Translations under genes and position numbers: made by a program
The notes under the pieces: model-generated
Told to the model about the DNA's origin: nothing
Databases searched by the model: none
The model's input: only the letters and a program-made list of their open reading frames with translations
Source: an uncultured bacterium
Lineage (GTDB): Bacteria; Patescibacteriota; Minisyncoccia; Phycocordibacterales; UBA9973
Direction of reading: 5' to 3'
NCBI GenBank assembly: GCA_903892035.1
Contig: CAITGV010000001.1
Span: 18,578-82,577 of the forward strand
DNA: 64,000 bases
Part shown: positions 52,361 through 54,120 of the stretch, piece by piece
Position numbering within the stretch: position 1 is the stretch's first letter
Layout of the letters: every line of letters begins with the position of its first letter

Positions 52361-52504
52361 TTTTATACTCTTTATTTTGTTCCGTTCTCTTTTTTCTGTT
52401 CTTTGACAGATGTCATATCGTTTTGAGTTCGATCAAACTTTTCTATGCTCAATTGAGGCATAGAAAATCGACGCCGTAAATCTTAAATCTCGCGAACGAG
52501 ATAG

Positions 52505-54120
52505 AAGACATTCAAATTGAATTATTCCACGAGCAGCTTCCGCTACCCGTGCCTTGTTACGACTTAGTCCCTGTCACTGAGCTTACCTTAGGCCCTGCGA
52601 ATGCAGAGATTTCGGGTATTCCCAGCTCCCTTGACTTGACGGGCGGTGAGTACAAGACTTGAGAACGTATTCACCGCAGTTTGCTGACCTGCGATTACTA
52701 GCAATTCCAACTTCATGAGGTCGAGTTGCAGACCTCAATCCGAACTGAGGCTACTTTTATAAGGATTGGCTCAAGGTTACCCTGTCGCGACCCGTTGTAG
52801 TAGCCATTGTATTATGTGTGTAGCCCAGGATATCAAAGGGACATGCTGACCTGGCGTCATCCTCTCCTTCCTCCCAGAACGGAAAAAACAAATAACTAAT
52901 ATCTAATAACTAATGTCTAAATAAAACGCATCTGCATTTTTTAGATATTAGAAATTAGGATTTAGAAATTTACTTACTCTGTTCTGGGCGGTCTCGTGTG
53001 ACAAATATAACACACGACGAGGGTTGCGTTCGTTACCCCACTTAAGGGAACAATTCAAACCACGAACTGACGACGGCCATGCATCACCTGCCTACTAGTC
53101 TTGCGAGGGCTCCAGTTTCTTGGAGCTTTCACGTAGGTTTCAAACCCTGGTGAGGTTCTTCGGTTACCATCGAATTAAACCACATAATCCACTGCTTGTG
53201 CAAGTCCCCGTCTATTCCTTTGAGTTTTAGCCTTGCGGCCGTACTTCCCAGGCGGTTCTCTTAACGCGTTAGCTTAGACTCTCAGAGGGTCGATACTCCG
53301 AAAATCGAGAGAACATCGTTTAGGGCGTGGACTACTGGGGTATCTAATCCCATTCGCTACCCACGCTTTCGTGTTTCAGTGTCAGAAATGCGCCAGTCTA
53401 TTGCCTTCGCTTTTGGTGTTCCCCATGATATCAACGGATTTCACCCCTACACCATGAGTTCCATAGACCTCTCACACTCTCTAGCTTTGCCGTTTCTCTT
53501 GCGATTCCAAAGTTAAGCTCTGGGATTTAACAAAAGACTAACAATGCCACCTACACACCCTTTACGCCCAATAATTCCGGATAACGCTCGGGGCTCTCGT
53601 ATTACCGCTCCTGCTGGCACGAGATTAGGAGCCCCTTATTCATGAGGTACCGTCAATAAACTTCTTCCCTCATAAAAGATCTTTACGTCCCAGAGGGACT
53701 TCATCAATCACGCGGCGTCGCTCCATCAGACTTTCGTCCATTGTGGAAGATTCTCGACTGCAGCCACCCGTAGGTGTATGGGCCGTGTCTCAGTCCCATC
53801 GGTGGGGGTCAGCCTCTCAGCTCCCCTAGGCGTCATAGCCTTGGTAGTCTTTTACACTACCAACTAGCTGATACCCCGCAGGCCTATCCTTTAGCGATAA
53901 ATCTTTACCCCGGAGGGTCTATCGCGTATTAGTCCACCTTTCGATGGATTATTCACGACTAAAGGGAAAGTACCCACGTGTTACTACCTCGTTCGCCACT
54001 AAACTTAAACGACCTTTGACTTGATATAATCTCATCTCGGGAAAAATAAGTTTCGTTCGACTTGCATGCCTTATCCACGCCGCCAGCGTTCATCCTGAGC
54101 TAGGATCAAACTCTACTTAA
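52505..54120 (-). rRNA. rrs: 16S ribosomal RNA (3' boundary uncertain; contains a ~114-nt AT-rich expansion at 52875-52988)
   Basis: rc contains AGAGTTTGATCCTAGCTCAG (5' end ~54117), GTGCCAGCAGGAGCGGTAAT, GTACTCACCGCCCGTCA, AAGTCGTAACAAGG and helix 45 with GGAA loop; 19-nt inverted repeats 54148-54166 / 52371-52389 form a processing stem. Confidence 0.9.

What the first reader, a model, noticed from the sequence alone, without database searches (positions are those of the whole stretch)
52371..52553. 16S rRNA 3' tail lacks the CCUCC anti-Shine-Dalgarno; non-canonical ~135-nt tail before the processing stem
After a recognisable helix 45 (GGCACGGGUAGCGGAAGCUGCUCGUGG with the GGAA dimethylation loop), the canonical GAUCACCUCCUUA is replaced by AAUAAUUCAAUUUGAAUGUCUUC, then a UUCG-tetraloop hairpin (AUCUCG-UUCG-CGAGAU) and a second hairpin. 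There is no GGAGG on the + strand anywhere in 52361-52527. Perfect 19-nt inverted repeats (54148-54166 and 52371-52389) flank the gene as a pre-rRNA processing stem, so the missing motif is not simply further downstream. This fits the complete lack of SD-like purine tracts upstream of genes in the window (rpsA, hisS, def, fmt, dnaE, secA, rnj starts all AT-only). The organism apparently initiates translation without SD:anti-SD pairing.
Basis: seen in the sequence. Interest (0 to 1): 0.7.

Follow-up and report, generated by a model that had tools for sequence, protein, structure and literature searches.

The report
16S rRNA without an anti-Shine-Dalgarno
This small-genome Parcubacteria (Nomurabacteria-like) bacterium has an intact 16S rRNA in which the CCUCC that normally pairs with mRNAs is replaced by a conserved A/U-rich tail, and its genes carry no Shine-Dalgarno sites.

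Summary
A full-length bacterial 16S rRNA lies on the minus strand (54121-52515, 1350 bits). After a normal helix 45 with a GGAA loop, the consensus GAUCACCUCCUUU is replaced by GAAUAAUUCAAUU. No CCUCC occurs anywhere before the 27-nt processing stem and the terminator.

It is not a pseudogene or an assembly error. Three syntenic Nomurabacteria/Paceibacteria genomes and two metagenome contigs carry the identical 16-nt tail, while the trailer downstream diverges. All 32 sequences (including this window) with this helix-45 type lack CCUCC. Tail type tracks 16S relatedness.

SD-like motifs are depleted upstream of 1145 genes of the clade (5% against 10% inside genes). A -10 promoter box peaks 6 nt before start codons, which suggests leaderless mRNAs. 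The remaining genes have A-rich leaders and U at -1. Words complementary to the new tail are not enriched upstream, so there is no replacement SD.

I found no prior description of two points:
- the strict conservation of the replacement tail, which keeps G1530, A1531 and A1534;
- the leaderless signature.

The mature 3' end is unknown.

The parts
52511..54121 (-). 16S rRNA gene. Rfam limits are 52515-54121; the 3' end is extended here to the end of the invariant tail. The mature 3' end has not been determined.
   Evidence: RF00177 at 1350 bits over model positions 1-1533; 3'-end alignment; conservation boundary.
52527..52553 (-). Helix 45, GGCACGGGUAGC-GGAA-GCUGCUCGUGG, with the GGAA (KsgA dimethyl-A) loop.
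   Evidence: It is invariant in all clade members.
52511..52526 (-). Non-canonical 3' tail AAUAAUUCAAUUUGAA, which replaces AUCACCUCCUUA. The CCUCC position is occupied by AUUCA.
   Evidence: It is identical in L004, L008, L054, L133 and L162. The broader consensus is A[AU]UA[AU]UUCAA.
52481..52508 (-). Trailer hairpin 1 with a UUCG tetraloop (AUCUCG-UUCG-CGAGAU core).
   Evidence: Relatives have a hairpin of different sequence at the same place.
52439..52472 (-). Conserved GUCGA(U) motif plus trailer hairpin 2, with the conserved apex CUCAAUUGAG.
   Evidence: RNAalifold finds 12 pairs, 5 with compensatory double changes, in 8 sequences.
52426..52439 (-). Small trailer hairpin 3 (AGUU-UGAUCG-AACU).
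   Evidence: Read by eye from the sequence and alignment; the MFE fold draws a different pairing here and predicts no pair. Equivalent small hairpins in L004 and L008 were also seen by eye. Weak evidence.
52400..52416 (-). Conserved trailer island AUGACA...AAAGA.
   Evidence: Conserved columns in alignments A1 and A3.
52363..52389 (-). 3' arm of the pre-16S processing stem.
   Evidence: 27-nt inverted repeat, 96% complementary.
54148..54174 (-). 5' arm of the pre-16S processing stem, in the leader.
52318..52360 (-). Intrinsic terminator ending the 16S transcription unit. No 23S follows.
   Evidence: 19-bp stem with 9 GC pairs and a T run.
54293..54320 (-). Promoter-like site TTGACT-16-TATACT upstream of the 16S leader.
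   Evidence: Consensus scan, 10 of 12 matches. This is a consensus match only.
52889..52985 (-). AT-rich insertion of about 100 nt inside the 16S. Relatives L004 and L054 have about 30 nt there.
   Evidence: Gap in the blastn alignments, internal inverted repeat, coordinates.

Best explanation
This is the working 16S rRNA gene of a Nomurabacteria-like Parcubacterium (Patescibacteria/CPR) that belongs to a clade whose small-subunit rRNA has lost the anti-Shine-Dalgarno sequence.

The 16S is transcribed alone, from its own promoter to its own terminator. A 27-bp leader/trailer stem brackets it for processing. The ~137 nt between helix 45 and that stem are mostly pre-rRNA trailer with conserved hairpins. 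The part retained in the ribosome is probably helix 45 plus about 11-16 nt (GAAUAAUUCAAUUUGAA). This boundary is inferred from the conservation pattern and has not been measured.

Because the tail cannot pair with GGAGG, and genes carry no SD, start-site selection does not use SD:anti-SD pairing. About 15-20% of genes appear to be leaderless: an extended -10 box ends 6 nt before the AUG, so the transcript would start at the start codon. The other genes rely on A-rich, G-poor, presumably unstructured leaders with U at -1, probably helped by the 4-domain bS1 encoded in the window.

The tail stays under purifying selection for reasons other than mRNA pairing. G1530, A1531 and A1534 are kept; these are the contacts used by the assembly GTPase Era and by the 30S platform. 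I infer that the tail's role is structural, or lies in assembly and 3'-end processing.
For: Shown:
- Full-length covariance-model match with the 3' end aligned, CCUCC replaced by AUUCA.
- No CCUCC before the terminator, and the processing stem is present.
- Relatives identified by RNase J at 70-76% identity are titled Candidatus Nomurabacteria, Paceibacteria or Minisyncoccia (many others carry generic or 'uncultured Candidatus Saccharibacteria' titles).
- The 16S is syntenic in L004, L008 and L054, with the tail invariant while the trailer diverges.
- In a tail-agnostic metagenome scan, all 28 contigs with the CACGG/UCGUG helix-45 type lack CCUCC, and 83 contigs with other helix-45 stems carry it. 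With the window and L004, L008 and L054 the helix-45 class has 32 members.
- Tail class follows identity in the 16S 3' domain: 89-96% for the identical tail, 82-88% for variants, 77-81% for AUCAUUUUUU, and at most 79.5% for canonical tails.
- SD 4-mers occur in -20..-4 of 5.2% of 1145 clade genes, against 10.0% in in-gene controls.
- A -10-like hexamer spikes at -12..-7 (75 of 684 against about 15 background; TANNNT 99 of 529 against about 25), with T-15/G-14 and U-1 at 51-61%.
- The remaining genes show an A-rich -10..-2.
- bS1 with S1 domains is encoded at 2177-3265.

Literature:
- Anti-SD motif loss in a Parcubacteria subgroup, and 3-4-domain bS1 in CPR (PMC9297842).
- Organisms without an anti-SD generally lack an SD (PMC6107228).
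- Era reads GAUCA, especially the G and the two As (PMC10582724).
Against: No RNA data exist for this organism, so the mature 3' end, the transcription start sites and expression of this copy are all inferred. Only 64 kb of a contig of about 488 kb was seen, so a second rrs copy cannot be excluded directly. Gene calls were crude (longest ORFs of at least 100 aa), so start-codon errors blur the upstream statistics. The positive control on canonical-anti-SD contigs gave only 27% against 12%. The 92 ORFs on the ASD-less metagenome contigs gave 15% against 10%, which is not a depletion. The leaderless fraction rests on motif position alone.
Confidence: 0.85

Rival explanations
1. Changed-specificity pairing. 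The new tail acts as a new anti-SD and pairs with a co-evolved A/U-rich 'SD' (complement UUCAAAUUGAAUUAUU) upstream of genes.
For: The tail is strictly conserved, and upstream regions are A/U-rich, so some pairing is chemically possible.
Against: Words complementary to the tail are depleted, not enriched, in -22..-1. For 5-mers, 476 genes against 552 +/- 18 in shuffles; for 6-mers, 130 against 192 +/- 13. Unbiased positional k-mer enrichment finds only A-tracts and the -10 box. Amin et al. found no matching variant SD/anti-SD pair in 128 other anti-SD-less organisms (PMC6107228).
Confidence: 0.04
2. The tail folds back on itself (UUCA-loop-UGAA) into a mini-helix that sits where the SD:anti-SD helix would sit, as a built-in mimic or plug.
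For: A 4-5 bp palindrome is present in the window and in most group-1 tails. A few variants look compensatory: UUCC..GGAA in L139 and UUUC..GAAA in L179. The 5' arm aligns with the CCUCC position. h26, which docks the SD helix, stays conserved in these lineages (PMC9297842).
Against: Predicted stability is negligible, 0 to -2.6 kcal/mol. The best-stem length is no better than in shuffled A/U-rich tails: 4.30 against 4.17-4.30, with 268-533 of 1000 shuffles at least as good. The 5' half is much more conserved than the 3' half.
Confidence: 0.08
3. The ~137 nt after helix 45, or part of it, stays in the mature rRNA as a 3' expansion segment and is not removed as trailer.
For: Hairpin 2 and several sequence islands are conserved, with covariation, and the trailer is unusually long and structured.
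Against: Sequence conservation drops sharply 16 nt after helix 45, and hairpin 1 varies freely in sequence and length. This is the pattern expected of a spacer. GUCGRU-plus-hairpin modules also follow canonical CCUCCUUU tails in unrelated phyla, where they are spacer.
Confidence: 0.1
4. The gene is a decaying or secondary rRNA copy, or an assembly or sequencing artefact, and a canonical 16S exists elsewhere.
For: Only 64 kb of the genome was examined.
Against: The match is full-length and high-scoring with all helices. The identical tail occurs in independent assemblies from different studies, the whole helix-45 class lacks CCUCC, and tail type is phylogenetically coherent. SD motifs are absent from genes. 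CPR genomes normally carry one rRNA copy (background knowledge).
Confidence: 0.02

Closest known systems
Anti-SD-less 16S rRNAs of a Parcubacteria subgroup (Tsurumaki, Saito, Tomita, Kanai 2022, RNA 28:1041; PMC9297842)
   Same: Same phylum-level group and same trait. The CCTCCT motif was detected in only 48% of Parcubacteria, and the authors state that SD helices presumably do not form. Short 3-4-domain bS1 is also reported there, and the window has one.
   Different: In its main text the paper reports only presence or absence of the motif. It does not describe the replacement sequence, its conservation, the trailer structure or how genes start. The link with uL1 loss could not be checked in this window.
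Other bacteria whose 16S lacks CCUCCU: Chryseobacterium/Elizabethkingia/Riemerella/Blattabacterium, some Mycoplasma, Candidatus Carsonella (Lim 2012; Amin et al. 2018, PMC6107228)
   Same: Helix 45 is kept, a ~13-nt tail lacks the anti-SD, no SD is enriched upstream of ORFs, the trait is clade-coherent, and no compensating variant SD exists.
   Different: A different phylum and an independent loss. Here the replacement tail is a defined, strongly conserved A/U-rich sequence shared across sequences that differ by up to about 18% in the 16S 3' domain.
Bacteroidetes-type SD-independent initiation (anti-SD present but sequestered; A-rich Kozak-like context) - recalled from background knowledge, not read here
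   Same: No SD use, and A-rich, G-poor sequence just upstream of start codons.
   Different: Most Bacteroidetes keep CCUCC, and it is absent here. The strongest positional signals here are U at -1 and a -10 box at -12.
Leaderless-mRNA-rich lineages (Actinobacteria, Deinococcus-Thermus, haloarchaea) and mammalian mitochondria
   Same: A TANNNT box ends 6-7 nt before the start codon, as in bacterial leaderless genes. Mitochondrial 12S rRNA also lacks the anti-SD (PMC10582724).
   Different: Actinobacteria and Deinococcus keep a canonical anti-SD and use SD for leadered genes. No TSS data exist here.
Era-16S 3' tail recognition (GAUCACCUCC; Tu et al. 2009/2011 as reviewed in PMC10582724)
   Same: G1530, A1531 and A1534, the residues read by the Era KH domain, are retained in 31 of 32 ASD-less tails.
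   Different: The CCUCC half of the site is gone. Most CPR have lost era, and Nomurabacteria are patchy for it. No era gene is in the window.

Membership tests
Bacterial SSU rRNA (Rfam RF00177) | Full-length match to the covariance model above the gathering score. | tested here: met
   1350.2 bits against a gathering score of 50, model positions 1-1533.
Bacterial SSU rRNA (Rfam RF00177) | Helix 45 with a GGAA loop, followed by the GAUCACCUCCUUA tail. | tested here: not met
   Helix 45 and its loop are present, but the tail is GAAUAAUUCAAUU. This is the anomaly itself and does not cast doubt on the gene's identity as a 16S.
Anti-SD-lacking 16S class (criterion of Amin et al. 2018) | The 13-nt tail after helix 45 lacks CCUCCU or a close variant. 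| tested here: met
   no CCUCC in the tail or anywhere before the terminator.
Anti-SD-lacking 16S class (criterion of Amin et al. 2018) | No SD motif enriched upstream of ORFs. | tested here: met
   5.2% against a 10.0% control over 1145 genes; 2 of 51 in the window. Gene calls were crude and the positive control was weak.
Anti-SD-lacking 16S class (criterion of Amin et al. 2018) | The trait is shared by related organisms, so it is not a sequencing error. | tested here: met
Anti-SD-less / uL1-lacking Parcubacteria subgroup (Tsurumaki 2022) | The organism is a Parcubacterium. | tested here: met
   The closest RNase J loci are titled Candidatus Nomurabacteria, Paceibacteria or Minisyncoccia, apart from generic or 'uncultured Candidatus Saccharibacteria' titles. 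The 16S is 85-92% identical to theirs.
Anti-SD-less / uL1-lacking Parcubacteria subgroup (Tsurumaki 2022) | Absence of ribosomal protein uL1 (and often bS21). | not testable with these tools
   Only 64 kb of the genome is available. No rplA region lies in the window.
Altered-specificity SD/anti-SD pair | A motif complementary to the new tail is enriched at a fixed distance upstream of starts. | tested here: not met
   Complementary 5- and 6-mers are depleted, and no such positional motif appears.
Leaderless-mRNA translation | A -10 promoter element ends 6-7 nt upstream of the start codon. | tested here: met
   A sharp peak at -12..-7, four- to five-fold over background, with extended -10 TG. 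9 of 51 window genes show it.
Leaderless-mRNA translation | The transcription start is mapped at the start codon. | not testable with these tools
   No transcript data are available.
rRNA pseudogene | Truncation, broken helices, no conservation in relatives. | tested here: not met

The most novel reading that the evidence does not exclude
The invariant A/U-rich tail is not just what remains after anti-SD decay. It would be a new functional element of the 30S platform in this clade: a binding site for an assembly or initiation factor, or a segment that fills the SD-helix pocket. Together with widespread leaderless transcripts and the U(-1)/A-rich context, it would define a distinct bacterial initiation regime. 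The conserved GUCGAU-hairpin trailer would then be its dedicated 3'-end processing signal.
Probability: 0.15. Interest if true: 0.6.

Novelty: already known. Interest (0 to 1): 0.33.

Why it matters
SD:anti-SD pairing is the textbook way bacteria find start codons. Whole clades that have deleted the rRNA half of that pairing show it is dispensable. They also mark genomes where SD-based gene finders will misplace starts. For Parcubacteria the loss is already published, so this window adds detail, not a discovery:
- The replacement tail is under strong purifying selection.
- It keeps the G/A/A residues used in 30S assembly.
- No substitute SD evolved.
- A sizeable share of genes look leaderless.

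These points give concrete targets for anyone who obtains ribosomes or transcriptomes from a cultured member of this group.

Tried and rejected
1. My first genome contigs pattern was mis-registered by one base (GGAV instead of GAAV after the stem). Its zero hits mean nothing.
2. The look-up of encoding contigs for the neighbouring gene returned a place without DNA. The listing of cluster members gave no names. Taxonomy therefore came from the titles of RNase J loci.
3. A replacement SD complementary to the new tail was tested and rejected.
4. A cis mini-hairpin in the tail looked attractive by eye but is no better than shuffled sequences and is barely stable.
5. The positive control for the crude SD count, using contigs with a canonical anti-SD, gave 27% against 12%. 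That is detectable but weak, probably because many ORFs there lie in 23S rRNA. The 92 ORFs on ASD-less metagenome contigs gave 15% against 10%, which is inconclusive.
6. Brute-force exon joining with ARAGORN to name the intron-split tRNA was uninformative, because ARAGORN accepted nearly every junction.
7. Rfam in E-value mode found no known family in the trailer.
8. Literature searches for leaderless translation or SD usage in Parcubacteria/Patescibacteria found nothing beyond Tsurumaki 2022. That paper's supplements are not held.

Full report
WHAT IS THERE. The window (36% G+C) carries a complete bacterial small-subunit rRNA gene on the minus strand. Rfam RF00177 matches 54121-52515 over model positions 1-1533 at 1350 bits. 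A focused scan of the 3' end shows helix 44 and helix 45 aligned with high posterior probability. Helix 45 is GGCACGGGUAGC-GGAA-GCUGCUCGUGG (52553-52527). Directly after it the consensus GGAUcACCUCCUUu is aligned to GGAAUAAUUCAAUU, so the CCUCC core (E. coli 1535-1539) reads AUUCA.

In the RNA sense there is no CCUCC, and not even CUCC, between helix 45 and 52300. The only CCUC lies in the loop-proximal stem of a hairpin. Downstream come four features:
- a UUCG-capped hairpin (52508-52481);
- a GUCGA motif plus a long hairpin with apex CUCAAUUGAG (52472-52439);
- a small third hairpin;
- a conserved AUGACA...AAAGA island.

After these comes the 3' arm of a 27-nt, 96%-complementary inverted repeat (52363-52389), whose partner lies in the leader (54148-54174). 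A 19-bp intrinsic terminator follows at once (52360-52318), and a TTGACT-16-TATACT site lies upstream (54320-54293). The 16S is therefore a stand-alone transcription unit, not linked to a 23S. The inverted repeat is longer than the 19 nt reported.

IS IT REAL BIOLOGY? Loci encoding the neighbouring RNase J at 70-76% identity come from MAGs titled Candidatus Nomurabacteria, Paceibacteria, Paceibacterota or Minisyncoccia, i.e. Parcubacteria; many others carry generic or 'uncultured Candidatus Saccharibacteria' titles. In three of them (L004, L008, L054) the 16S is syntenic and complete.

Aligned with the window, helix 45 and the next 17 nt (GAAUAAUUCAAUUUGAA) are invariant. The sequence immediately downstream diverges in both sequence and length while keeping hairpins. 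RNAalifold on eight trailers supports hairpin 2 with five pairs that changed on both sides.

A tail-agnostic scan of metagenome contigs for the inner helix-45 sequence gave 120 loci. Together with the window and L004, L008 and L054, the CACGG/UCGUG outer-stem class has 32 members and none has CCUCC. The 83 contigs with other outer stems carry AUCACCUCCUUUCU-type tails.

Tail type follows relatedness in the 16S 3' domain:
- the identical tail at 89-96% identity;
- variants of the form A[AU]UA[AU]UUCAA at 82-88%;
- a second family, AUCAUUUUUUU, at 77-81%, which is formally CCUCC turned into U's;
- canonical tails only at 79.5% or below.

This pattern argues strongly against a pseudogene, a chimera or a sequencing error. 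It shows an old, clade-wide loss.

DO GENES USE SD? I called longest non-overlapping ORFs of at least 100 aa in the window plus the 80 related loci (1.39 Mb, 1145 genes). GGAG/GAGG/AGGA occurs in -20..-4 of 5.2% of genes. The same words occur in 10.0% of same-size windows inside genes and in 7.8% at -40..-23. In the window it is 2 of 51, and both tracts sit just after a -10-like box. The same crude pipeline detects SD enrichment in contigs with a canonical anti-SD (27% against 12%), so it is not blind, but it is a weak control.

What is enriched upstream is a -10 hexamer at exactly -12..-7. By the strict definition it occurs in 75 of 684 genes against about 15 at other offsets. TANNNT occurs in 99 of 529 against about 25. 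It comes with T-15/G-14 (an extended -10) and U at -1 in 51-61% of genes. Nine of 51 window genes show it. A -10 box ending 6 nt before the start codon is the classical signature of leaderless transcripts; that link rests on background knowledge. Genes without the box have only an A-rich, G-poor -10..-2 and U-1. The second codon is AAA in 16% of genes.

IS THERE A NEW SD? No. Words complementary to the new tail are depleted in -22..-1. For 5-mers the count is 476 genes against 552 +/- 18 in shuffles, and for 6-mers 130 against 192 +/- 13. Positional k-mer analysis finds nothing but A-tracts. This agrees with Amin et al. (PMC6107228), who found no matching variant SD/anti-SD pair in 128 anti-SD-less organisms.

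WHY IS THE TAIL CONSERVED? The tail contains a UUCA-AUU-UGAA palindrome, and a few variants look compensatory (L139, L179). However, predicted stability is close to zero, and stem potential equals that of shuffled tails. I therefore do not claim a hairpin. What is retained in 31 of 32 ASD-less tails is G-A-x-x-A, corresponding to G1530, A1531 and A1534. These are the residues of GAUCA read by the KH domain of the assembly GTPase Era (review PMC10582724). The same review notes that most CPR lost era and that Nomurabacteria are patchy for it. My inference is that the tail is kept for 30S architecture, assembly or 3'-end processing, not for mRNA pairing. The sharp fall in conservation 16 nt after helix 45 suggests that the mature 3' end lies about there. 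This has not been measured.

COMPARISON WITH WHAT IS KNOWN. Tsurumaki et al. 2022 (PMC9297842) state that the CCTCCT motif was detected in only 48% of Parcubacteria. They report that the lineages lacking it overlap the uL1-lacking group, that SD helices probably do not form there, and that CPR bS1 has 3-4 S1 domains. The window encodes a 362-aa bS1. The core finding is therefore already in the literature for this very group. Analogous losses are known in some Flavobacteriia, Mycoplasma and Carsonella (PMC6107228) and in mitochondria.

I found no paper describing the replacement sequence, its conservation, the trailer elements, or leaderless initiation in Parcubacteria. These are incremental additions, based on sequence statistics only.

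VERDICT. The kind is already known. Interest is modest. The most novel reading still open is that the conserved tail is a new functional platform element; I give it about 15%.

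Noticed in passing
window 30797-31441 (-): A tRNA gene that ARAGORN missed is split in its anticodon loop by an intron of about 560 nt. The 5' exon GCUCCGCGGUAGCUCAGCGGUAGAGCAAUCGACU... lies at about 31441-31405. The 3' exon ...UCGAUUGGUCGUAGGUUCGAUCCCUACCCGCGGAGCCA lies at about 30845-30797. 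The intron contains the Rfam group I hit (30845-31096, 65.9 bits) and a 106-aa ORF (31056-31376) with an HNH-like Cys/His pattern that I recognised by eye; Pfam found no domain. A TATAAT box lies 6 nt before that ORF's ATG. The anticodon (Thr-UGU, His-GUG or Asn-GUU) depends on the exact splice sites and was not resolved.
   Followed up: partly
window ~52889-52985 (-), inside the 16S: An AT-rich insertion of about 100 nt with an internal inverted repeat (52884-52909 / 52938-52963) interrupts the 16S just upstream of model position ~1159. Relatives L004 and L054 have only about 30 nt there. It looks like one of the variable rRNA insertions typical of CPR. I did not establish whether it is excised.
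   Followed up: partly
window-wide and L001-L080: The start-codon context is unusual. U at -1 occurs in 51-61% of genes, A reaches about 50% at -11..-2, G falls to 5-10%, and AAA is the second codon in 16%. A TANNNT box at exactly -12..-7 occurs even in front of genes that sit less than 25 nt behind an upstream gene (47 of 307), which suggests promoters embedded in upstream coding ends.
   Followed up: yes
window 10873-11472 (-) and 13229-13885 (-): The only two genes with GGAGG/GGGGG upstream are a DedA/VTT-domain protein and a PAP2 phosphatase. Both carry the tract between a TGcTATACT/TGcTATAGT extended -10 box and the ATG (spacers of 11 and 10 nt). There it would act as a G-rich promoter discriminator or a very short leader. 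It would not be a ribosome-binding site.
   Followed up: no
L081-L200 and window 52468-52472: A GUCGRU motif followed by a hairpin recurs about 40-90 nt downstream of the 16S 3' end. It appears in this clade and also after canonical CCUCCUUUCU tails in many unrelated metagenome contigs (for example ...CUAGGUCGGUCUCCGAUUAAUCGGAG). This looks like a widely conserved pre-rRNA trailer element. I could not name it.
   Followed up: no
window 52318-54320: The 16S is an isolated transcription unit with its own promoter-like site and terminator. No 23S, 5S or spacer tRNA is adjacent. A Kelch-repeat protein gene follows (50635-52323) and a PG_binding_1 protein gene precedes (54393-55127).
   Followed up: partly
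window 47846-48197 (-): The RNase P RNA (class A) scores only 110.7 bits against a gathering score of 100, although it covers the full model length. This suggests a divergent or reduced RNase P RNA.
   Followed up: no
window 7684-8073 (-), 34353-35048 (+), 3597-4184 (-), 2177-3265 (+): The window is rich in translation-related genes: a short HPF/S30AE hibernation factor (129 aa), RsmE (16S m3U1498 methyltransferase family), peptidyl-tRNA hydrolase, a 362-aa bS1, def, fmt, hisS, RNase J and an RluD-like pseudouridine synthase. No era, ksgA, ybeY or rpsU gene is in the window.
   Followed up: partly
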